Notes: generated by a model from the sequence alone, not told the origin. DNA of 64,000 nucleotides from Fimicolochytrium jonesii (GCF_025526975.1 NW_026515668.1:1-64000), one strand, 5' to 3'; positions 22 through 47,500 are shown, counted from the stretch's first letter. Made by a program: numbers and translations.

Positions 22-1963
22 ATGATGCCAGGAGGTGAGTGCCAAGCGGAGCGGAGAGAGTCGCGAGTACGAGAGCGAGCGGCTTTTGAGATGCGTGATG
101 GATCATTGCTAACACCCCTCTTTCTCATCAATAGGACGCCTTGCAAACCGGGCAACGATGGTGATAGTGATCCTCCTGACCGCCGGACTCTCAATAACAG
201 TCTTGAGCTCGCTAAGCTCGTCAACACCCGACTACATACCTACATCAGACAGCTCACAACGACATAAACAACTAGACCCAGACACAGCCGTCCTGAACCT
301 AGAAACAGGCTTCCGCGCCCCGAAAGTAGAAGGCGTGCATCTCACCTCCGACCTCGAATCTGAATCCCTCTGGGAGCGCAACCGGCAATACGCCATTGTC
401 ATAGACGCGGGAAGTTCCGGGTCGCGCGTGCAAGTGTATTCATGGACAAATCCGGCGTTTGCGCGCAAGGCGCTCGGTCAAAACGCCATGAATAGATTAC
501 CCGTCATCGAAAAGGGCGACGAGAAGGGCGAACGCTGGACGTTCAAGGAAGACCCCGGAATCTCCTCTTTTGCATCAAGACCCGAAGCCATCGGGTCACA
601 TCTCCAACCTCTTTTGGATTTCTCAGACAGTGTGATCCCCAAACGGAAACGCGCCCAGACCCCCTTGTACCTCCTCGCCACCGCCGGCATGCGGCTAGTC
701 GAACCAACCGCCCGCGACCGCCTGCTCGACCGGACATGCCAGTACATCCGCTCCCACTCCCCCTACCGTCTCGACGGGGGCTGCGCCTTACACGTACGTG
801 TCATCTCCGGCGAGCTAGAGGGCATCTACGGCTGGGTGACGGTCAACTACCTCAAGAACGGGTTCGACGTCGCCAACGACCCCAACACTCCCAAAAAACA
901 TACGTTTGGATTCCTGGATATGGGCGGGGCGTCGACGCAGATTGCATTCCAGCCGACGCGGGATATGGCCGAACGGCATAGCGATGATTTGACGACGATG
1001 AAGTTGAGGTTCTTGGATGGGGTGGAGATGACTTATCGCGTTTTTGTGACGACTTTCTTGGGGTTTGGGGTGAATGAGGCTAGGAGGCGGTACCTAGAAG
1101 GTTTGACCGCCGCGGATAGTTCTCATACGGATACGACCAATTTGCCAATCCCCGAACCCTGCCTCCCCACTGGCCTCCTCTACAAAGACCCCCACCTCGC
1201 CTCCACGACGCCCACCCCAACCTTCCTCGGCACCGGCTCCTTCACCCAATGCCTCACCTCCCTCCTTCCCCTCCTCAACAAATCCCTGCCCTGCCCAGAT
1301 CGCCCCTGCCTCTTCAACGGCGTGCACGCGCCCGTCTCGAACGCGTTGCACTTTCTGGGTGTGAGCGAGTACTGGTACACCGCGTCGGACGTGTACGGCC
1401 TCGGAGGTAGCTACAACCACTCCCTTTTCCTGGACTCCACCACAAAGTTCTGTTCACAGCCGTGGCCGGAGATCCAACAACACTTTGGTGAAAAGCGATG
1501 GCCCATGGTGAACGATATCGACCGGCTGAAACTCCAGTGCTTCAAATCAGCCTGGATCATGAGTGTCCTGCATGACGGGCTTGGCGTGCCGAGGGAGATG
1601 GTGCGTGTGCCGAACGATGAGGATGACAGTGGGAGGGGGGTGGATGTGCATGGCGAGGGTGCGAGTTCCGATCCGGCGTTTGAGAGTGTGAACGAGATTG
1701 GGACGTTTAGTGTGAGTTGGACGTTGGGGGCGATCTTGCTGCATGTTGCTGCTACTATACCGAGGGCGGACGGGGAAGCGCAGGGGGTGGTGGGGAGGGT
1801 GGTGAAGTGGGTTTTGGGGATGGTTTTGATGGGAGGTGTGGGAGGGGGACTGCTGTGGCAGTGGAGGAAGAGGAAGCGGCTGACAAGGAAGTATTCGGAT
1901 GTTGCGCAGGTTGATCCGGATGGGGTGGGAAGGATTGAGATTGTTTATGAGCGGCCGAGGTGA
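22..1963 (+). CDS. YND1: Golgi apyrase / nucleoside phosphatase (GDA1/CD39 family)
   Basis: Apyrase conserved regions IVIDAGSSGSR, LLATAGMR, ISGELEGIYGWVTVNY, FLDMGGASTQI and VSWTLGA, plus a C-terminal TM helix followed by basic residues. Exon 22-34 joins in frame to 135 through a GTGAGT..CTAAC..TAG intron (35-134). Confidence 0.9.
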
Positions 1964-2129
1964 TTGCGTAGTCAGCTATGTTTTTAGCTACATTACATCT
2001 CCCCTTATATCGGGATCCTTTGTAAAAAGGCAATGCTTTCAGTTGAGTAATCCCTTGATGCAATAATATTGTTCCAACGATCGTAACATTTCCTTGTCCT
2101 GTCCATTTCCTCGCGTCATGCGTGTGCAA

Positions 2130-2247
2130 GTCACATCAACGCTCCTCCCTACGTCAGAGTTTCAACTACAAGTTGCCATCATCGGCGATGCCTCCGGCAG
2201 AGGTACAATGATGTGGATGGCAGATAACCACCACGGCAAATTCTAGA
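2130..2247 (-). ncRNA. candidate Fanzor omegaRNA scaffold
   Basis: Lies directly 3' of the Fanzor stop, where omegaRNAs are encoded. Nested stem TGCCATC..CCTCT-GCC-GGAGG..GATGGCA (~2174-2222) plus a small overlapping CAACT-TGT-AGTTG hairpin. Boundaries are guessed. Confidence 0.4.
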
Positions 2248-5200
2248 CTACTGGTTACGGGAGAATGCGTCTGGTCTGCCATTGCCAAGCACCACCGAAC
2301 GCACAATCGAGAGGAAATTCTTGGTACTTAGGACGTCCCGATTGTGCACTTTCATCCGTAGTCATAGTGGTCGTCTTCCAGCAGGAATCTCAAATGGCGT
2401 CCAGTCTTGGTTGATACATTCGGGGTTGCGGCAACCCACCAATCCATGGACGAATTCCATTCTTCCCTTTCTAGCTTGCCACGGCCGAGATGACAGCCGT
2501 CGTCGGATGTTTTTCTTCACACGGCCGTGGCAGTTGGGGCACACGGACGATGTTCGATACTCATCTAGCAAGTAGCATGGAATGCTGCTTCTTGCAAAGA
2601 GTGTGCGGAATCTGATTTCCATGATGAGTTGGCATATTAAAATACATAGCAGGTACCACCAATGATAATCACTCACCCTTTGGTCTTCGACGACTCCTGA
2701 AAGCGCATGGTCTTTCCAGCGTCGCTCCAATCACCCAAGATGACTGAAAAATGCTTTCCATACAGGCGTCGCATGTTCTTGATGAGCTTGCTCTCAGACT
2801 TTTGCCGCAGTGAGAACGCCTTGAATCTGCGAGCCACGTGAACCTCATCCTGGTAAAACTCATCCAGGGCGGGATCTGGGATATGGATGGATGTCAGCCC
2901 ATGTGTTACCAAAGTTGAAAATCAAAGTTGAAGTAGAACATCATACCCGCATGTTTGTAATCCACAATGAACGCTGAGAACACCTCGATGTTCATGCTCT
3001 TGTGCGACGGAATATGTGATTCCATCTCAGCAATGCCGGCATTGGTCTTTCGCTCTCTCATGTCTCTTTGAAAGTACCGAGACTTTGTCTTGACCGCCCG
3101 TTGATTGGATGTGTATCTGGTATGGGGTGGTGCATTGTGAGAACGCGGCAACGGAATGTCGAACAAAGGGGATGGTGGGGATGGTGACGGGAGGGGATGG
3201 TGGGGATGGGGACGGGGACAGGGTTGAGGAGGGCGTTCATTGGGATAGCGGCGACAGTGGGGACAGCGGCGACAGCGGGGACGGCGGCGACAGCAGGGAC
3301 AGAGGCGACAGCGGAGCGGGGACAGCGAAGCGGGGACAGCGGCGACAGCGGGGATAGCGGAGACAGCGGGGATAGCGGAGGTACTGCAGATCGAATTCAG
3401 TCGCCGTCGCAGTCGCAGTCGCCATGCATTGCTCCGCATTCTGATCTCATTGAATGTTCCGCCAACTTCCGCGATCGCTTGAGTCCAGCTTGGAGTAGGA
3501 GCCGGGCTCGCGCTTCGCGCTTCACGACTACGACGGCGAAGCGACAACACATCCCATGCCGGTCGACCTCCCGCAAGCGGCGGTCGTGCTCAGCACAGGA
3601 AGCGTCGAGATCAGCGATGGCGGAAGTTGATAGCATAAAGTTGATGGCGTAACCAACAGCGGCGACAGCGGCAACAGCGGGTACGGCGGGGACAGCGGGG
3701 AGGGACAGCGGGGACAGCAGGGCGGTAGTAATCAACTGAAACGTACCAAAATGGCTGCTCCTTCTTGTTGTCTCGACAGAATAGGAGGTCACGCTTGCCC
3801 GGATCAATGCAGACAATGTTTGGAGCCTCCCTTAATTTGTCAATGTGGTGCTCAAAACACAGTTGCTTGACTTCTTCCTGCATTTGGGCCTTGCTGCGCT
3901 TCCGGGCCCGATACCCATACTTGAGCCCTGGCTTCTTGAAGTGGATGGTAACGGAATACCCGTTGGCGCTAATTGACCCATCGAACTTGAGACCAAGCTT
4001 CTTTCGATGTTTGAAGACCTTGTCCTATAATCCGTCATTCAGCAACGTAATCTGATTGAAATAAGCACATAAGGATAGAGACTTACATTCACGTTGATAA
4101 ACTGCCCCCACAGCTCCCGCTTGCGTTCATCAGTGAGTCTTCCCATGCAACGTCTGCTGACATCCAGGATATGAGTACTCAGGATCAGCGTGTCCATCCG
4201 AACAGGCGACTGGATTCAAGATTTGCGCAGTGGAATAGCAGAAAACAGCCGCATTCCACGGCGCTCATAAAGGCGTGAGAGCTCACAATAGGCACCTGTG
4301 GTGAAACAGGAGTGGACCATGATTAGACAAAAGAGGAAGCCGAGGGGGGGGGGGGGGGCAAAAGGGGCGGGCGGTTACGCCAACGCCATGGCGGTGGGCA
4401 AGAGCATCGGGCGTGCCCCGGGCCCGCTGTGCGCGCACTGGGGGCGTCGTCGAGGCGGGGGAGGAGGAGGGGGGGGGGGAGCCCGCAGGAGCCAAGCGTG
4501 CGGGCGCCCAGCGGCAACAGCGCATCGCGAACCACGTCGGCCGGGGTCCCGGCAAGCAACCACTCGGCCAGGTCGGGGTATCAAGCGAGGCGCGCGCTCG
4601 TGCCGCTGCACAGCCACGCACGGGCTGGGGGGGGGGGGGGGGGGAGGGGGGGGGGGAGGGATGAGAATATACAGGATGCAACTCACCTAAAAATGGCATT
4701 GCGTCCACCGCAAGGCTGTATGCAAGCGGTTCATCCTGGGGAGGAAACAGAGCACATAACTCGTCGAGGAGAGTCCGCTCAAGTCGTGTGAGGCCGGCAA
4801 ACTCCTCTTCCGTTGGGTACTCTTCAAATGTCGCGTACTTTGTGAATTGACGGACACGCCGATAATACTGTTGGCGCTGCGCTCAGCTGACTCCGGCTCT
4901 CCGAAGATGCAGTACGGCTTGCTTCAAACCAAGCCGCTTGTTGAAGTAGCGCAGAAGCATTTGCAGAAAATGCTCCTGTACGTTGACTTTGAGGTTAGTG
5001 AAGATGCTCGTAGCTGTGTACGCTGCAGTCTGTTGGCTATTTCGCATGCGGATGGGGGCAAATCCGTGAACATTACAGTACTCTTGAACCCGTGGACGCA
5101 ACTCTTGCGCGATGATCGGACTGCCATTGTAGCCGGGGTTGTTTAGCAGCTCAAATATCACACTAATGTGCTTGTTGGTGATGTCCGGGAAATTGTGTAG

Positions 5201-5493
5201 AGGATGATCAGCTGCGGTGAGCAGACGTAGCAGTCAGGACATTGTTTTGTGGGAAATGTACAGTGTAGTGTAAATATACAGTGTAGTGTACGCCAAAAAC
5301 TCACCAAGGTAGTACTTGAGGAAGAAGGTGGTGTGGCGCGCAAGTATGTGAACATTGCCAATGAATGTTGTCAGGTGCTCCCTTTGAGCTTGATTGTGGA
5401 TGATTCGGTGAAGTGAAACCTTGGTGCTGGCGTGTGTCTGCGGGCGGGGTCGTTGAGCTGGTGGTGGTGGCGGGGGTTCGTACACCCGGTGTG
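2248..5493 (-). pseudogene. Fanzor (Fz1-like eukaryotic TnpB homologue, RuvC RNA-guided endonuclease), multi-intron, with in-frame stops
   Basis: Hand-spliced minus-strand exons ~5493-5305, 5211-4687, 4295-4087, 4024-3747, 3116-2947, 2875-2677 and 2611-2248 are all phase-compatible (~640 codons). Motifs: FSAIPLRKS.I..PVRMDT; FDGSISANGYSV; RuvC-I VCIDPGKRDLL; YTSNQR; VILGDWS; LLDEYRTSSVCPNC..HGLVGCRNPEC (rearranged Glu plus Zn finger); RuvC-III HNRDVLSTKNF; C-terminal GRPDAFSR. Four in-frame TGA codons interrupt it. Confidence 0.9.
3241..3720. repeat. degenerate 9-bp repeat arrays (GGGACAGCG/GCGACAGCG) flanking an insert in Fanzor intron 4
   Basis: Arrays at ~3241-3380 and ~3655-3720 bracket a ~275 bp segment. 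Confidence 0.8.
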
Positions 5494-6566
5494 CTGGGAA
5501 AAAGGAAAGGGATGGGAGCAGGGAGGTTCAACGGACGCTGCAGGCCCCTGTCCACGGGTGAAAGCCCTCGCTGCTGTTGCTGATGCTGCTGCCCGTCTTC
5601 ATTGCCGGAACTCTCGCTAACCATGTCTGCAATTGCTTGGGGCAAGTGGCGTTGGACAGACGGTGGGAACTCGAATCGCGTGGGCTGCAATGGCGTCTGC
5701 ACAGCGGTTGGCAGACGTATGGGCAGCCGCGGGGTAGCCAGAGTAACCTTCCTCCTCTTCCGCCGCGGTGTGGTAGCTCCGCTAAAGATGCCACCCCACA
5801 GGTGCCCCTGGAGCGCCTGGTGTGATGACATGATGGCCATGCTGTGCTGTGCTGTGCAGGCAGGTGGTGAGATCAAGGGGACCGAGCAAAGGGGCCTGCT
5901 CTTGATGAGGATCCAGGATTCCTGCTTACCTGCGATGTCTTGAAGGCTTTTAGAGATTGGTTGGGGGTTTGCCTTGATGTGCAAGGGTGGAAGTGTGGGC
6001 AATTGTGCGCAATTGTAAGAAGGAGCTCGGTCTAGGTGTGAAAGCAGGTCTGGAATTTGTCTTCTCGCCTGTGGAGCCCTCAATGGATTTTGGGACCCAC
6101 AGGATCGGTAGTCCCTCAATTGGTCGGGACCGAAGAAGCGATCTGTTTGGCGGCAGTCGGACGGTTCCCAAGACCCCGTGGCTGAGCCTGGCGTTGGTTG
6201 TCGGCGGGGCGCACATTGTCGGTGGACGAAGTAGCCTGCGTCGGGCGAGCGTCGTCAGAGAGGTGAAGATCATCGGTGCTCGACATGCCAGGTCCGTAAA
6301 CTAGTTGTTGTCATCGGATGCGCAAAAGCTCAGCAACCCATCTTGAGTTCGTCCGCAACGAGGCTAAGGGTGGTGATTCCGGAAGTTTCGGAGGTATGGT
6401 GCAAACGGATACTGGTGAGTATGCTCTTCCGGGTAGAGAGAGGGACACACAAAGGCAGTTTTGGTCGTCGTCGGACGGTGATTCTGACTGAAAAACAGAC
6501 GGTGATTCTCGGTCTTTGTGGGAAAAAGGACGCACACGAAGCGCGAGCTCCATTCACCAGACGCCC

Positions 6567-6792
6567 AGTTAACAATCACGCCTGGCCGTGCCGGCAGTGA
6601 ATACCACGCCTGGCCGTGCCGGCAGTGGTCATAACTGTTCATCGGTTGTGGAGCAAGAGTCTGAGCGAGAGCCAGCATTCACCATTCACCATTCACCATT
6701 CATCATTCACCAGACCCACCAGAAGATAGTTAACAATCACGCCTGGCCGTGCCGGCAGTGAATACCACGCCTGGCCGTGCCGGCAGTGGTCA
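6567..6792. repeat. two ~65-bp direct repeats, each with two copies of the 23-mer CACGCCTGGCCGTGCCGGCAGTG
   Basis: 23-mers at 6577, 6605, 6738 and 6766; the blocks are offset by 161 bp and separated by a (CATTCAC)n tract. Confidence 0.95.
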
Positions 6793-7326
6793 CAACTTCT
6801 TCTACGTGTACTGGGGAATGGGCAACGGAATCTGGGGACTGGGCCACGGAATCTTGGTCTTGATCTTGGTCTTGAAATGCTGAGGAGGAAAAAGGTGTTC
6901 CGTCCGATGACGAGCGGCTATTTATACGTCCTGCACAGTATGTCCGAGCCTTCAGACTCCTACGTTTGTTTGTACGGTGATTGTTGGTTGATTGTTTCTG
7001 ATATTAGGTGGTTATTGGATTATTATATGATATGTGGATCCTCTCTAGCATTTAGCCGTGGATCTATTTTCATCAAGCCGGTGCTATTTTACTTTATGTT
7101 AGATTTAGGCCATCATACATTGCACTGGAGCCTGGAGGCGTGAGCCGGACTTTTTCTTCAGGGTCCTTTCGAATGGGTATAAAAGCAAGCCAGTGCCGAC
7201 ATTCCCCTCCCAGGCATTACCTACAAGTATCATACCACTACCGACCGCTTCAACTCCAAGGTAACAGATCCACCCAATCCCTACACTACAGTTGAGAATT
7301 AGAAGCCGCACACACAACCAAAACCG

Positions 7327-7425
7327 ATCGCCTGAGGCAGCTCGGAATAGGAGCAGCCTCGCAATACGCTATCCACGTGCGCCATCGCCTGAGGCAGCTC
7401 GGAATAGGAGCAGCCTCGCGATACG
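7327..7425. repeat. tandem 42-bp duplication, each copy a hairpin
   Basis: 7327-7368 and 7384-7425 differ by one base; each contains GAGGCAGCTC-GGAATAG-GAGCAGCCTC. Confidence 0.9.
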
Positions 7426-7625
7426 TTTGCCGTTCTACGTCACAAACCCACTCCCATGCTCCCGCGATGACCTACATACTCCGCCCCAACTAACTCACAT
7501 ACTCCCTTCACCAGGCAAATCACCATGACAGTGTCAACGTCAACGCCAGTGTCGAAGTCCAAGCCGCCACGGCGACGTTCCAAAGCATCGAGGGCTAGGG
7601 GAAAGGCGGCAACCCAACAGCGCAT

Positions 7626-8160
7626 ATGAGAAACCCAACAGTCCTTTCGTGGGCGTCCCAAGTCATCTGGCAGGCGCGCGTATATCTCAGCGAACTATGG
7701 AAGCTGACCGGCGTCGTCAACGCGAGCAAGGGTTCCCAGCATACAGTCCGACTGTCGGCTCGCGCCCCCCATGACCTCCGATGGCACTACGATACGCTCG
7801 TTCAGTGGTCTAGGGTTTGTTTGCTATCGGAGCAGGAATGGGAAACGCAAGAGCTCTTTGGCATTGCCTCTGACTCTGGCGAAATTGGTCTCGGTGTTAC
7901 TTGCAAGGACTTTTTCATCGTCGGTCGCTGGTGTCCCGGGTGCTATCACGCTGCCGGATCTTCATCAGCCCTGTTTGAAATGGCAACCATCGCGATCGGA
8001 CTCGAGACCTTTGGTCCCTACTTGTCGGGCAAGAGAGTAATCTCGGTCATGGACAACGAGGGAACGCCACCGCTTTTGCCAACGGCCGCGCTCGCTCAAC
8101 ATCTCTTTGCGAGCTCATATGGAATATCTACATGGCGAGTGTGCACTTCGAGTTCGACAT
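7626..8160 (+). mobile_element. degenerate DIRS/Ngaro-type (tyrosine-recombinase retrotransposon) connection/RNase H fragment
   Basis: DLRWH..LVQWS..L; IASDSGEIGLG (TDAS..G.G equivalent); SSALFEMATIAIGLETFGPYLSGKRVISVMDN (E..A...L.GK.V...DN pattern of DIRS RNase H). No RT core or YR domain was seen. Confidence 0.65.
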
Positions 8161-8162
8161 TG

Positions 8163-8325
8163 TATAGCAAACACGCCCAGACAGCACGGCCCAGGCAGGT
8201 CGACCTCCCGCAAGCGGCGGTCGTGCTCAACATGGGCATCGAGATCAGCATATAGCAAACACGCCCAGACAGCACAGCCCACGTAGGTCGACCTCCGCAA
8301 GCAGCGGTTGTGCTCAACATGGGCC
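8163..8325. repeat. 88-bp-period tandem repeat (about 1.9 copies)
   Basis: TATAGCAAACACGCCCAGACAGCAC..GGTCGACCTCC(C)GCAAGC..GTGCTCAACATGGGC starts at 8163 and again at 8251. Confidence 0.9.
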
Positions 8326-8510
8326 GCGTGCCCAGGCGGTCAACACCCAGCGGAGATGGGCTTGCCGGGCTTGAGCTGGAAGGAGGTGGGCGTTGGCCAG
8401 GGGGGTGAGGGGGCTGCCGTCCGCTGCGAGCGCTTGACGTTTCGTGTGAGAGGAGGAGAGTGTGGTCTTGGAGATGCGGCGATCAGCAGTGTGGACAAGC
8501 CACGACTGTG

Positions 8511-8656
8511 CCTAACCCTAACACTACCTACCTTTGTGTAAAAGTCGGCCGAGTGGTACACGGCACGGGTGGGTCAACCCTAACCCTAACCCTAACCCTA
8601 ACCCGGACTCTAACCCGGTCTCTAACCCTAACCCTAACCCGAACCCGAACCCCAAC
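8511..8656. repeat. interstitial telomere-like (CCCTAA)n tract
   Basis: Perfect CCCTAA runs at ~8576-8604 and ~8622-8640, variant units (CCCGAA, CCCGGA), and a short run at 8511. Confidence 0.9.
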
Positions 8657-8913
8657 TGGGCACGTGGTCAGGATTATATTACCCGGGTATGGGAGATTCC
8701 GTGATGAGTTATGACATGGGGGGTTTGCAGGCGGGTTTATTGGGAGTGGATGAGAATGAATGAATGAATAAGATAATGATTAGCCAGCGGCAATTGTCGT
8801 TTCGAAACTGGAGTAAACCCCCGGCCCCCCGCCTCCGACGCGCTCCCTCGCCCGCCCCGCCCTCGCAAGCAAGCGCCTAATCAAAAAAAGGCGGTCGGTG
8901 GAGGAGACTTCGC

Positions 8914-9621
8914 ATGGTGCTAAAGCTGCGAGCGGCCCGCATCGCTCGCGAGACCCGCGAATCGCAAACAAAGAACGCCTCGGCTGTGCCGGGCAAGATT
9001 TTGCCCACCCCCGATGAGCAGGTCCTCACCCAGACCCTAACCAACCACGGCATACCCGAAGTCCACCGCGTCTCCTACAAGCGCCCGCGCAACCTCCATC
9101 AACAGGCCACCCTTCGCCGGTTCGACCAGGCGAGGCTGAGGCGGTGGTGGAACTGGCATGATAAGCATATGGAGCTGTTGAGGGAGGATAAATTGCAGAA
9201 ATCGCGGAGACAGCAGTTTCTTTCCAACCTACGTACGCATGCCTGGATCACACCACCGCCGTCGCCTGCGGCCGGGCAGCAAAACCCGGAGCAGCAGCAA
9301 CAGCAGCAACGCCCGATGAACGTGCAGGCTACCGACGAGATCAAGCAGCGGAAAGAACGTGCCCAGCATCTCACGAAATTGCGCACCAGCTCAGCCCCCA
9401 ACCTTCGTTTACAAGGCGGTAAAGCGGAGGTCGTGGTGTTGTCGCCCGTCTCACCCGTCGATGCCAATAACTTTTCAACTATACCCACAGCATTTGCTTT
9501 CATTTCCCACGACACATACACACATTGCTTTCAACGTCTGCGCCTCGCCTCGCCTCTCTCTAGCCTCTATATCCATATCAACGTACGGCTTCCGCTCTGC
9601 ATATACCGTGGAGCAATGTGA
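8914..9621 (+). CDS. hypothetical protein (3' end uncertain)
   Basis: ATG-initiated 235-aa ORF with a basic helical N-terminal half and polyQ; no family recognised. Confidence 0.4.
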   Translation: MVLKLRAARIARETRESQTKNASAVPGKILPTPDEQVLTQTLTNHGIPEVHRVSYKRPRNLHQQATLRRFDQARLRRWWNWHDKHMELLREDKLQKSRRQQFLSNLRTHAWITPPPSPAAGQQNPEQQQQQQRPMNVQATDEIKQRKERAQHLTKLRTSSAPNLRLQGGKAEVVVLSPVSPVDANNFSTIPTAFAFISHDTYTHCFQRLRLASPLSSLYIHINVRLPLCIYRGAM

Positions 9622-10388: not shown

Positions 10389-10475
10389 GGCAAGCCGGCC
10401 GCGACGGAGACGCCATTCCAGATGGTTAGTGCTCTTCATGCTCTGAAACGCTGCTTTGATAATGATGCGGAGCTT
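10389..10475 (+). repeat. 87-bp dispersed repeat, copy 1
   Basis: Matches 23318-23404 with 3 mismatches. Confidence 0.95.
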
Positions 10476-10882
10476 GGCACCTCAAGGACAAAGCGCCAAC
10501 ACGTACTGTACGTAACAATTATCTATGGCGTTAAACAGTTTCGACAGATAACAGCGCAGGAGACATCTCGATCGTCAAATTCCTGACCGAATTTCCATGA
10601 TAGGACGGAACGGGAACCTTCTTCAATTCGGAACTGGCCAGCCAGCGCAAGTATTCAGCACCAGTGGGCGTGTGTAAGACGAGAACGAGATCCTCCCTTA
10701 GCTCACTGTCGCTTTCGTCCGCGACCCATGTCCTGCCTGCGGGCATCTCATTTGCAACGTTTCGTCGAAGATGAGACCCCCATAAGATAACACAGAGGGT
10801 ACGTCGGATACCGGGCGTCCGCATCAGAGGGTATGGTGTGCCTATGTATGTACAGTGCGAGATCAACGTCTTTCTCGACTGC

Positions 10883-23317: not shown

Positions 23318-23404
23318 GGCAAGCCAGCCGCGACGGAGACGCCTTTCCAGACGGTTAGTGCTCTTCATGCTCTGAAACGCTGCTTTGATAATGATGCGGA
23401 GCTT
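23318..23404 (+). repeat. 87-bp dispersed repeat, copy 2
   Basis: Matches 10389-10475 with 3 mismatches. Confidence 0.95.
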
Positions 23405-24082
23405 AGCGGGTCCGATGGGCTTGCTGTCTCGCTTGCGGTTAAAGCCAGCATTTGCGTACAGCTGTCGCCACCCCATCAATGCATCACCAGGCCTTTCTTT
23501 GAGTTCCAGCCGTGCAGACAATCCTTTCCATGAAGTCTTTCCTCGTCCTATTCAGTTTCCAAGGCATATCTGACACGACGGTGTCGGTGTGAGTGCACCG
23601 GCCGGTGGAATGTTGGCAGCGGGCGCTGCAACCGGAGTATAGGGCCAGACGCTGATCACAACGAAACCGATGGTGACGGGCTGATCAGCAGCTGCTTCTG
23701 TTGCTATTGTGGAGGTCACGCTGACATGGGGATCTCCTTGACGTTTGTGGTGCCGAGGCAGGTATGCCGGGTGATGCCGGTCGGCTGGTCTAAGGAGCGT
23801 CTTCCTCGCCGCACGCTCAAGCGGGTGCTGCTATGTATGGCTATGGGAAGTCTCTTCCAGCAACGCACCGGGTCCCCTCCACAAGAAGAAGAAGACGGGA
23901 ACTTAATCTCGTCCAGGCGTCACGTGAAGAGTGCAAGCTGCCCTTCTGCCCGCCCCAAGCTCTTCGGCTTTCCACGCAGGCATTGCAACTTCTAGTTCGG
24001 AGCAGAACGCACGAGAGCCCCCTCCCCTGTCAGCAGCAGACCATGCTAGCACAGCAGCTACATATCGTTCGCGCTATCATCT

Positions 24083-44504: not shown

Positions 44505-47500
44505 GATGACGCAGGTGCTAAACGGCCGGCGGATATCCGTAAGTCCTCCGCCTCTTAGACCATACGGTAAGTACGCAAGCACCGTAGTCCCGTCTGGACT
44601 GTCTAATGTCTATCTGACTTTGTAAACTGCGAGACGTTCAGGCTGAGGAGAATGGACGTTCTTTGTCTCGCTCACTTCGCCCGAGAGTCCCTCCTGTCGG
44701 TTGCCGTCAGTCGCTTGCTAGCTAACTAACTAACCGCCGCCTTTTCTTGACTCCGCTCGCCCCCCGCCGTAAGAGAACTGCTCAAAGACACAACTCATTG
44801 TTATTAAAGGTGGGACGCGGATACTGTACACGACTCAAATGGGAGTCGGGCATGCTGTCTTGATCTATAGCAACAGGGCCCGTCGCCTTGTTCTCTCGCA
44901 CGTACAGTCTCCTTACACCCTTCACACACAGCACGACAGGAAGACGGCGATTTTTTTCTTTTGAGAACGCGGACATTGCATTGCAGAAACGATACACAGC
45001 ACGAAACGTATTTACGACAAGTTCACAACAACCCAATGTACTCATGCACGACTCGAGATCTACAAAGGCGGCTTCCGCAAAAGAGCGCAACAGGAGGGTG
45101 CCAACAGTAACGAAAAGGCTCATAAGTGAGAGGGGTTGGTATCCAGAGCATCCCACTCGAGTCCGGCCCGCAGGCCGACTTGTGAATTGCACTTAACGGG
45201 TAGCTGCACGTGGACCGCTTTCATGAGTCGATTGCAAGTTTCCAGCTCTGGTAACTCCGAAAAGTCGTCATGGAGAGTGAAACCGATGCATGACCCGCAG
45301 TTTCTGATAATCCACCAGAGCTTGCGCCCTGTGTTCTTTCGAACATGTGTTATGTGCTTGTGGGAGCCTGTCCCAGGTGAATGTGAGACGCGAGTCGTTG
45401 CGCGTAAACGCAACGACTCCGTCCGTATGTGTTCCTGGAATCACAAGCTTGGAAGCCAACCCCCTCAATTATGCCTGTGTACTGTCGGGCACCGTCGTGT
45501 CTTCGCGATGCGTGAACGAAGCCGCCTGCCTACTAGGAGTGACCCTGTCTTGGCTCACTCACTTGACCTTCATACGTACCCGAAGAAACCTAAACAATTA
45601 CAAGGAAATGCAGGATCAGCGTCTGTTACAACACGAATGCATATCAACGATAGTGGCAATGAGTAGTGGGGGGTAGCACGCCTCAGACATCCAAGGAAGG
45701 TGCTTCTGCCGGCATCGGGACTTGCGTCCCTTCGGAGGAAACTGCGAATATGGTAATCTTCATCCACGGCAGTGCTGATACCCCCCACTCACTATGCTGG
45801 GAAGGAGGAAGGGAGAAACCAACCTGCTCGGACGACTGTGGTCACGACATGAAAGCGGTACTGAGATTGTTGCTCATCGAACCATGTTGGGACCTTTAAG
45901 TATGAGAAGGAAAACAGTTGATGAGGAACCAATCCCAAAACACAAAGAGATGAATAAAAGGAATCACGCAGCGGTCTTCCACAAGCAGAGGGGTCAGAAA
46001 AAGCACTGGCTAGAGTGAACCCCGCTCCGTAAAGCGAGGCGCCGTTTTCAACATGGTCGATTAGACGGGGAAAGAATTGCTATCATCATACCCGGGCGTC
46101 TGCCAGTTTGAATCGTGCTGCGTGATTCCTGATGAGGGGGGTGGGAACGTAAACATACCGAGCTGTGGGATCACCTATGAGGGGAGCGTCGCTGAAGAGA
46201 GATAGGCGCGCGGATAGTAGAGAGATACAGGTGCAGCGCCTGCCTGTCCCAGCACGCTCCGTCGAAAACAGATTGGGGAACGGAATGGGTGGTAAACTCC
46301 GGCGGTGGCAGGGTCTCCTTTTATAGGCGGGGGGCGGGGGTGGGTTTTTCTTCGACAAGGCCTAGTCACGTGGACAGTCATGTGACCGTCCGAACGCGTG
46401 TATTTGAATTGCGGGGCACCCGTGGTTTGCAGCAACTGACACTAGTATCTACGCGTCGTCGCCGTTTTCAGCTTCACAATAAACGGAGCTTCCCTTTTTC
46501 GACGCAGAGCGCTGGACAGGCAAGGGCAGCGCGTGAGCGCCGTTGGTGCGGGACTTCAGCGGAATTGTCAGGGCTATCAGAATCACCAAAAATATCTGAA
46601 TAAAGTTCCGGACTGGCTGAGTTATGGCAGATTTTGGGTAAGGAATGGGTGAGGAAGAGAGGCCCAAAACGGCGTCCGGCGCCGTCGCGATAACCCCCAA
46701 AATGGGTGGCGCAGCGAGGGTGCCCCTGAGCCCTCCGTTGAAGAAGGCGCTGAAGGAGCGCATCGCCAGCCAGTACGCGGCGATGGTGAAGATCATACGA
46801 GGACACCCCATGCACTCCTCCTAAGCTGCTCGTTTTTCTGTCTTTGTAACGACGCGTCGTGTTCATCGATCAACCTCTGCACTGCGTCCGAACGCGAAGG
46901 CAGCATGCGGAGGTAATCCGCCACCGGCAACATATCTGCGTCCTGTCAATCACCGTGGTCTTCTGTATCATCGCCATCGTCAAAAGGTATAGGCCATTGT
47001 ACAGTCAGGTAGCAAAAAGCTGTCTCTCCTCCTAATTGAGGTCAATGACCGTCCCACAAGGCGGAGAGGGCGGCACTGACTTAATCTCGCGGAGAGACAG
47101 CTTTTTGCTACCTGACTGTATTTCAAAGCCGCACGTAATTTACTACGAGCGATGGCGAAGGTGCGGCGTTCAAAAACTTCAAGTACGTTCTGAGCCGGAC
47201 CAGATCCTCCAGTTTGATTGTCACCATCGGGTCGTAGATTTTCTACGTACGGGTCAGGCTCTGTCTAAAGGTCTGTTTTTCCAGAAGAACCCAACAGGAT
47301 TTGCCCTCGACGAAAGGTATGGTGTTGCCGGCCTTGTCCACTGTCACAAATTCCAAGGCTTTTCCGAAGGCGATGGGCGTTTGCTGAACGTCTGTGGGCC
47401 GAACGGGAAGGTGCTTCTTACGATACGCTTCTGGCTGCTCGCTCAACCAACGCTCAGGGTCTGCATTTGAGGAGTACGCCGGCATCGGGCACACAGTCAG

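What the first reader, a model, noticed from the sequence alone, without database searches (positions are those of the whole stretch)
2248..5493. Hidden six-intron Fanzor (eukaryotic RNA-guided nuclease) gene
Seen: six introns with canonical ends (minus strand 5304-5212 GTGAGT/CAG, 4686-4296 GTGAGT/CAG, 4086-4025 GTAAGT/TAG, 3746-3117 GTACGT/CAG, 2946-2876 GTATGA/CAG, 2676-2612 GTGAGT/CAG). Splicing them gives one continuous frame of ~640 codons with phases 1,1,0,2,1,2. Known: the D(PG), GDW, DExxTS-CxxC and NRD..N motif order is the Fanzor/TnpB RuvC with the rearranged catalytic Glu, and chytrid Fanzor1 proteins such as SpuFz1 are of similar length. Inference: this is a heavily intronised Fanzor1 family. 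All three catalytic residues and the Zn-finger cysteines are retained, so an active consensus may be reconstructable.
Basis: partly seen in the sequence, partly recalled or inferred. Interest (0 to 1): 0.92.

Follow-up and report, generated by a model that had tools for sequence, protein, structure and literature searches.

The report
Dead six-intron chytrid Fanzor1 copy
This is a broken copy of a six-intron Fanzor1 gene (a jumping-gene RNA-guided DNA cutter) in a chytrid fungus; it has dozens of sister copies, and one that looks intact is likely a working relative of the known genome editor SpuFz1, predicted to recognise a different target motif.

Summary
The six introns, their phases and the D-E-D/zinc-finger residues are real, and the product is Fanzor1: exons hit SpuFz1 in order, 43% identity over 639 columns. 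But this copy is dead. The spliced frame has four in-frame TGA stops and a frameshift near 5482, and the gene starts at 5831, not 5493. It belongs to a multi-copy family in Fimicolochytrium jonesii: 45 of 60 gene models held cover the catalytic Glu. One model, P0079 (761 aa), is full length without stops and folds like SpuFz1 (Foldseek E 4e-51), so no reconstruction is needed. Differences from SpuFz1: six introns that are absent wherever 139 related loci span the sites (one exception at site 1, biased sample), a ~128-residue disordered N-terminus with an NLS-like motif, two changed TAM contacts, and no terminal inverted repeats found. Decay is CpG-biased. Intron-bearing Fanzor1 genes are already published, and this scan noted similar dead fungal Fanzor relics on other DNA. 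omegaRNA, element ends and activity are unshown. New member of a known kind; modest interest.

The parts
5852..5929 (-). Probable seventh intron in the 5' leader (GTAAGC...CAG, 78 nt; acceptor uncertain among repeated CACAG units)
   Evidence: Sequence; one paralog model, P0016, joins the same flanks. Weak: one predicted model
5305..5831 (-). Exon 1: ATG 5831, disordered Pro-rich N-terminal extension with NLS-like PRRKRRKV (5768-5745), frameshift at about 5482, then start of the WED/REC core
   Evidence: 15 F. jonesii models begin at this Met and 16 carry the basic motif; all 17 models printed for that site have more residues there than the window encodes; residues 1-128 pLDDT<50 in the P0079 model
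5212..5304 (-). Intron 1, phase 1, GTGAGT/CAG
   Evidence: 13 of 15 spanning HSPs clean
4687..5211 (-). Exon 2 (REC); premature TGA 4885-4883; TAM-contact positions G (5134, SpuFz1 R96), Q Q (5035, 5032), A (5023, SpuFz1 N133)
   Evidence: phmmer to 8gkh_P E 5e-22; residue map
4296..4686 (-). Intron 2, phase 1, 391 nt, GC-rich with poly-C tracts
   Evidence: 12 of 15 clean
4087..4295 (-). Exon 3; premature TGA 4218-4216
4025..4086 (-). Intron 3, phase 0, GTAAGT/TAG
   Evidence: 21 of 26 clean
3747..4024 (-). Exon 4 (WED, RuvC-I Asp at 3805 in IDPGKRD)
   Evidence: phmmer to 8gkh_P E 4e-15
3117..3746 (-). Intron 4, phase 2, 630 nt with 9-nt minisatellites; splicing creates a TGA across the junction
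   Evidence: 28 of 33 clean; paralog models P0016 and P0090 read into the same intron sequence
2947..3116 (-). Exon 5
2876..2946 (-). Intron 5, phase 1, GTATGA/CAG
   Evidence: 40 of 42 clean; P0021, P0097, P0001 read into it
2677..2875 (-). Exon 6 (GDW, lid region)
   Evidence: phmmer to 8gkh_P E 2e-17
2612..2676 (-). Intron 6, phase 2, GTGAGT/CAG
   Evidence: 43 of 43 clean
2248..2611 (-). Exon 7: catalytic Glu (2562), CxxC (2541, 2532), premature TGA 2364-2362, catalytic Asp (2337), stop TAG 2250-2248
   Evidence: phmmer to 8gkh_P E 9e-23 and 9cf0_P E 1e-8
2166..2241 (-). Candidate omegaRNA scaffold (two hairpins in a closing stem, ending near TTGTA); position inferred from SpuFz1, not shown
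   Evidence: z -1.75, 11 of 200 shuffles fold as well, ends chosen after looking; wider windows not significant; no Rfam match
6551..6797 (.). Two 86-94 nt direct repeats, each holding two copies of a ~23-nt GC-rich unit; possibly subterminal repeats of the element, membership not shown

Best explanation
This is a pseudogene copy of a six-intron Fanzor1 gene, broken by four stop codons and a frameshift, from a multi-copy chytrid family whose intact members likely work as omegaRNA-guided RuvC DNA nucleases like SpuFz1. Shown: gene structure, lesions, family membership, many sister gene models, SpuFz1-like predicted fold of P0079. Inferred: an intact ~760-aa protein is spliced, enters the nucleus through its basic N-terminal motif, loads an RNA made from the ~80 nt after the stop codon plus ~15 nt of flank, and cuts DNA beside a TAM that probably differs from CATA; this would help a non-autonomous DNA element persist. 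Copies share intron sequence, so the family likely spread by DNA-level copying after the introns were gained. The host likely methylates the copies at CpG, and deamination produced this copy's stops.
For: Exons hit SpuFz1 in order; spliced product 43% to SpuFz1, 51% to Gaertneriomyces P0017, 89% to P0079. Quick IQ-TREE of 32 rows places it inside the F. jonesii clade (SH-aLRT 100), sister to P0017 (100). P0079 model pLDDT 80, pTM 0.75; top seven Foldseek hits are SpuFz, PpFz, GtFz (E 4e-51 to 2e-18). D/E/D kept in 30 of 31, 45 of 45, 39 of 39 models covering the sites. All four stops are TGA opposite Arg (14 of 15, 15 of 17, 29 of 29, 22 of 25 models). 13 of 38 differences from the family majority fit CpG transitions; 13 of 28 transitions against ~14% expected, p 3e-5; 9 of 24 without the stops, p 0.003. 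PMC12695648 (passage) reports 5mC confined to transposons in Spizellomyces. Paralog models read into introns 4 and 5 with the window's intron sequence.
Against: Sister copies were seen only as predicted proteins; their DNA, flanks and transcripts were not available, so junction support comes from gene models and colinearity, not reads. No element ends, inverted repeats, target-site duplication or transposase were found, so mobility rests on copy number. The omegaRNA fold is only marginal. P0079 itself differs from the family majority at 25 positions, including T659K beside the catalytic Glu, so it may be inactive too. The family has Gly where SpuFz1 has the metal-coordinating N385 (PMC10432273 section 10). 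CpG origin was preferred where a transversion from AGA could also give the stop, and the baseline comes from the decayed copy.
Confidence: 0.85

Rival explanations
1. The introns are old and were lost in Spu-1 and other relatives (for example through a cDNA intermediate), so this family did not gain them recently.
For: The 139 related loci were found by contiguous peptide patterns and ranked by tblastn, which favours intronless genes; most are 21-32% identical and 59 come from viral contigs. The gene structure of the nearest relative, P0017, was not seen.
Against: All four 41-46% relatives (L001-L004; L001 and L002 are one locus) are continuous at all six sites, as are nearly all distant loci. 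SPu-1 is described as a single ORF (PMC3627910, PMC10432273 passages). Loss would have to be complete in several branches of the tree.
Confidence: 0.2
2. The protein gene is dead but the locus still works as a guide-RNA donor for intact copies, like the ghost Spu-1 loci.
For: Ghost loci with working omegaRNA scaffolds exist in Spizellomyces (PMC10432273 passages); the 3' segment can form two hairpins; a full-length sister model exists.
Against: The fold is marginal (6-11 of 200 shuffles as good, post hoc ends); the copy shows CpG-biased decay, which suggests silencing.
Confidence: 0.2
3. The family is a domesticated host gene family or a nuclease-dead RNA-guided DNA binder rather than a selfish element.
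For: Host-like introns, a conserved NLS-like motif (16 models), no inverted repeats or transposase found, Gly at the N385 position.
Against: Most of the 60 models held are fragments or misspliced; copies lie on about 30 contigs (my count of distinct contig lengths); the catalytic triad is kept.
Confidence: 0.06
4. This copy is expressed as a full protein by stop-codon read-through, a variant code or RNA editing.
For: All four stops are the same codon, TGA, opposite the same residue.
Against: It also has a frameshift near 5482; CGA-to-TGA deamination explains the pattern together with nine non-stop CpG changes; long host ORFs in the window read by the standard code.
Confidence: 0.02

Closest known systems
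SpuFz1 / SPu-1 element of Spizellomyces punctatus (PDB 8gkh, 9ceu-9cez; P0022)
   Same: 44% identity over 641 columns for P0079; same predicted fold (TM 0.85-0.88 by target); D383, E541, D606, C548, C551, Q129, Q130, R291, Y345 kept; multi-copy in a Spizellomycetales chytrid.
   Different: SPu-1 is a ~2.1-kb single-ORF element with 30-33 bp inverted repeats. This gene spans 3.6 kb with six introns, has ~128 extra disordered N-terminal residues, R96 to G, N133 to A and N385 to G, no inverted repeats found, and this copy is broken.
Gaertneriomyces sp. hypothetical protein P0017 (KAJ3177236.1)
   Same: Nearest non-Fimicolochytrium relative, 51% to the spliced product, sister in the tree.
   Different: 637 aa, no long N-terminal extension, keeps R96 and DPN; gene structure not seen.
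Intron-containing Fanzor1 of Chlamydomonas (CRe-1/2/3, CrFNuc) in Helitron2 elements
   Same: Multi-exon Fanzor1 in a multi-copy element (five and ten exons; PMC3627910 and PMC10530073 passages).
   Different: Green alga, known Helitron2 carrier; no carrier identified here. Sequences were not compared.
PpFz1 (9cf0) and GtFz1 (9cer)
   Same: Fanzor1 fold (Foldseek E 2e-30 and 2e-18).
   Different: 16-20% identity; GtFz1 has Asn at the third catalytic site (PMC11423790 passage), this family keeps Asp.

Membership tests
Fanzor1 | TnpB-derived RuvC with D...E...D triad, Glu placed just before the zinc finger | tested here: met
   Window D3805, E2562, D2337 align to SpuFz1 D383, E541, D606
Fanzor1 | C-terminal zinc-finger/TNB domain | tested here: met
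   CxxC aligned to C548/C551; Pfam Cas12f1-like_TNB only weak, E 0.023, and this Pfam copy gives no hit for SpuFz1 itself at 0.01
Fanzor1 | WED/REC/RuvC architecture with enlarged REC | tested here: met
   Model of paralog P0079 matches SpuFz, PpFz, GtFz far better than Cas12f or TnpB; the window copy itself was not folded
Fanzor1 | Groups with Fanzor1 proteins in a tree | tested here: met
   Nested with Gaertneriomyces and near the Spizellomyces clade (quick tree, midpoint root, no Fanzor2/TnpB outgroup)
Fanzor1 | Eukaryotic gene in a multi-copy mobile element | tested here: inconclusive
   Eukaryotic and multi-copy, but ends, TSD and transposase not found
Fanzor1 | omegaRNA from the 3' end | tested here: inconclusive
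   Two-hairpin candidate 2241-2166, z -1.75; no paralog DNA for covariation
Fanzor1 | RNA-guided, TAM-dependent DNA cleavage | not testable with these tools
   Needs a biochemical assay
Active Fanzor1 gene (this copy) | Open reading frame after splicing | tested here: not met
   Four TGA stops and one frameshift
SPu-1-type TIR element | 30-33 bp terminal inverted repeats around a ~2.1-kb single ORF | tested here: not met
   No inverted 20-mer with 5 or fewer mismatches between 2060-2250 and 5832-9000; a 14-mer from the candidate end gives only chance-level hits in the window
Helitron2-borne Fanzor1 | Asymmetric terminal repeats, 3' hairpin, Rep/helicase in cis or trans | tested here: inconclusive
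   No Helitron Rep or transposase domain among 129 ORF translations scanned (not every ORF of the window); ends cannot be set without other copies

The most novel reading that the evidence does not exclude
A Fanzor1 lineage gained six or seven spliceosomal introns and an NLS-bearing tail after splitting from intronless SpuFz1-like ancestors, then spread to dozens of copies in a carrier without inverted repeats that is not yet described; its intact copy P0079 is an active RNA-guided nuclease with a TAM other than CATA. That would give a close-range case of intron gain in a mobile nuclease gene and a new natural editor beside SpuFz1.
Probability: 0.3. Interest if true: 0.55.

Novelty: new member of a known kind. 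Interest (0 to 1): 0.32.

Why it matters
The copy itself is inert repeat content. The family is worth a note for two reasons. It is a 44%-identical relative of the structurally solved SpuFz1 with two of the six named TAM contacts changed (R96 and N133), so a natural full-length copy now labelled 'uncharacterized' could widen the target range of Fanzor editors. And it offers a near comparison of intron-bearing and intronless versions of one mobile gene, which makes the published idea that Fanzors captured introns testable at known positions.

Tried and rejected
No whole genome is held, so sister copies, ends and flanks could not be read as DNA. No sequencing run was listed: no RNA holder listed, no evidence either way. 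First metagenome scan with P0004: 91 pattern matches, none confirmed; the profile scan kept the best 80 of 265, none above 46% identity. Inverted-repeat searches found no TIR; none evident in L001/L002 either. Rfam: no match in 1900-9000. Folding of six wider 3' windows: z from -1.22 to 0.60; L001's 3' flank also not significant and aligns poorly with the window's. Pfam found no transposase in 22 and 107 ORF translations. The ORF 7599-8252 gave one hit among 1187 candidates, a F. jonesii model matching this stretch itself, so it gave no sign that 7.6-8.3 kb is part of the repeat. Introns share no sequence beyond one 14-mer: not an introner family. The polypyrimidine-CAG at 5494 is rejected as an acceptor because paralog models read through it. 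The protein atlas did not answer, so the N-terminal extension is unsearched there. The careful tree did not finish; the quick tree is cited. Supplements of PMC10530073 (2 files) and PMC10432273 (9 files, one unreadable) had no hit for Fimicolochytrium terms, but the first also had none for Spizellomyces, so these tables may list the family under assembly numbers.

Full report
Observation. The six introns are at the stated minus-strand coordinates with GT/AG ends and phases 1,1,0,2,1,2; five of the six have a branch-like motif near the acceptor. Joining the exons gives 643 codons in one frame from 5491, but with four TGA stops: 4885-4883, 4218-4216, one formed across intron 4, and 2364-2362. 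The gene does not start at 5493. A different frame from ATG 5831 encodes 116 residues that are 87% identical to the start of paralog P0079; all 17 models printed for that site have more residues at the join than the window encodes, so a short deletion near 5482 shifts the frame. This copy therefore has five lesions and cannot encode the nuclease.

Identity. Exons 2, 4, 6 and 7 each hit SpuFz1 (8gkh_P) best, in order, at E 5e-22, 4e-15, 2e-17 and 9e-23. The spliced product is 43% identical to SpuFz1 over 639 columns, 51% to a Gaertneriomyces protein and 89% to P0079. Catalytic D383, E541, D606 and C548, C551 of SpuFz1 (PMC10432273 section 10 for the acidic residues) map to D, E, D, C, C in the window. 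A quick IQ-TREE of 32 rows puts the copy inside a Fimicolochytrium jonesii clade, sister to Gaertneriomyces, near the Spizellomyces and Rhizophlyctis proteins (SH-aLRT only, midpoint root). An AlphaFold2 model of P0079 from a 41-row alignment (pLDDT 80, pTM 0.75; residues 1-128 disordered) matches SpuFz at E 4e-51, then PpFz and GtFz, with Cas12f and TnpB far behind. The host is a chytrid, likely F. jonesii, judged from paralog identity and a neighbouring gene model that matches the window.

Family. Searches returned many 'uncharacterized' F. jonesii models (13 of 13 hits; more). Of 60 held at that point, 58 align at 70% or more, 45 cover the catalytic Glu, and 18 carry all five catalytic and zinc residues. 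I count about 30 distinct contig lengths. Junction support is 13 of 15, 12 of 15, 21 of 26, 28 of 33, 40 of 42 and 43 of 43 spanning HSPs; these are predicted models, not reads. Misspliced models read into intron 4 (P0016, P0090) and intron 5 (P0021, P0097, P0001) with the window's intron sequence, and more weakly into introns 2 and 6, so sister copies carry the same introns and likely spread as DNA. P0079 (761 aa) and P0080 (693 aa) align to the spliced frame with only 3 gap columns. P0079 has 25 differences from the family majority, one next to the catalytic Glu, and P0080 has 32, including the position of SpuFz1 R407; activity of either is open.

Differences from SpuFz1. (1) Introns: SPu-1 is described as a single ORF in a ~2.1-kb element (PMC3627910, PMC10432273, passages). 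Among 139 related loci (80 of 265 metagenome, 59 viral) the six sites are continuous in 78 of 79, 135 of 135, 139 of 139, 139 of 139, 137 of 137 and 136 of 136 loci that span them. This favours intron gain in the Fimicolochytrium line, but the scan favours intronless genes, only four loci (three distinct) are above 40% identity, and the nearest relative's gene structure was not seen. A seventh intron in the leader (5929-5852) rests on the sequence and one model. (2) A ~128-residue disordered N-terminus with P(R)(R/Q)KRRKV in 16 models; calling it a nuclear localisation signal is from my recall of classical basic signals. (3) TAM contacts: Q129, Q130, R291, Y345 kept; R96 is G and N133 is A, so the TAM is predicted to differ from CATA. 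N385 is G in all five family rows aligned. (4) No inverted repeats were found and no transposase domain in 129 ORF translations; the carrier is unknown.

Guide RNA. By analogy with SpuFz1 (75-nt scaffold after the stop, 15-nt guide) the scaffold would lie at about 2241-2166. That stretch folds into two hairpins within a closing stem, z -1.75 and -1.94 (11 and 6 of 200 shuffles), but I chose the ends after looking, and six wider windows were not significant. It is a candidate only.

Decay. All four stops lie opposite Arg. Of 38 differences from the family majority, 13 fit CpG transitions: 13 of 28 transitions against ~14% expected (p 3e-5), or 9 of 24 without the stops (p 0.003). CpG observed/expected is 0.85 in the exons against 0.96-1.08 in four host ORFs. 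PMC12695648 (passage) reports 5mC confined to transposons in Spizellomyces. Methylation here is inferred, not measured.

Literature. Intron-bearing Fanzors are known: five- and ten-exon CRe elements (PMC3627910, passages) and intron densities up to ~9.6/kb (PMC10530073, passages and section 7); this gene has 2.6/kb. I also read passages of PMC11423790, PMC12247965 and bioRxiv 2023.08.09.552727. Searches showed no paper on a Fimicolochytrium Fanzor; the one listed paper holding both words cites Fanzor only in its references. Supplement searches were blank but weak, and large surveys may hold the family under assembly numbers. Earlier notes of this scan describe other dead fungal Fanzor1 relics on other genomes (not tested here); none matched this sequence or place.

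Verdict. Real, correctly identified, but a dead copy of a new member of a known kind. The lasting leads are the full-length paralog with altered TAM contacts and the likely recent intron gains. Interest 0.32.

Noticed in passing
window 3543-3615 and 8163-8335: A 73-nt piece of intron 4 matches (85%) a tandemly doubled ~88-nt unit at 8163-8335; paralog model P0068 carries the same sequence upstream of its Fanzor start in the other orientation. Possibly part of the element or a companion repeat.
   Followed up: partly
window 8576-8656: Interstitial telomere-like (CCCTAA)n array, 13.5 degenerate copies, about 2.8 kb upstream of the Fanzor start; link to the element unknown.
   Followed up: no
window 10389-10478 and 23318-23407: A 90-nt repeat at 96% identity, 12.9 kb apart; probably another dispersed repeat.
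   Followed up: no
window 47000-47120: 41-nt inverted arms, 88% complementary, 39 nt apart; could be a small MITE or hairpin.
   Followed up: no
window 7327-7425: Two 42-nt direct repeats at 98% identity.
   Followed up: no
window 113-1963 (+): GDA1/CD39 nucleoside phosphatase gene ends about 200 nt from the candidate right end, convergent with the Fanzor; it bounds the element on that side.
   Followed up: partly
protein P0043: A F. jonesii model joins a tyrosine-recombinase-like domain (PF00589, E 6e-4, below cut-off) to a Fanzor fragment; probably a nested insertion, but Crypton-Fanzor associations are reported.
   Followed up: partly
proteins P0052 and P0068: Two models on different contigs share an identical long N-terminal stretch, suggesting a very recent copy event.
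   Followed up: no
L001-L004: The four closest metagenome Fanzor1 loci are intronless and each has a frameshift; L003 also has stops.
   Followed up: partly
window 10886-64000: Ordinary fungal host genes: band-7, peptidase S41, kelch, arrestin, GNAT, Ipi1/TEX10, superfamily-1 helicase, synaptobrevin, Utp21, KA1 kinase.
   Followed up: no
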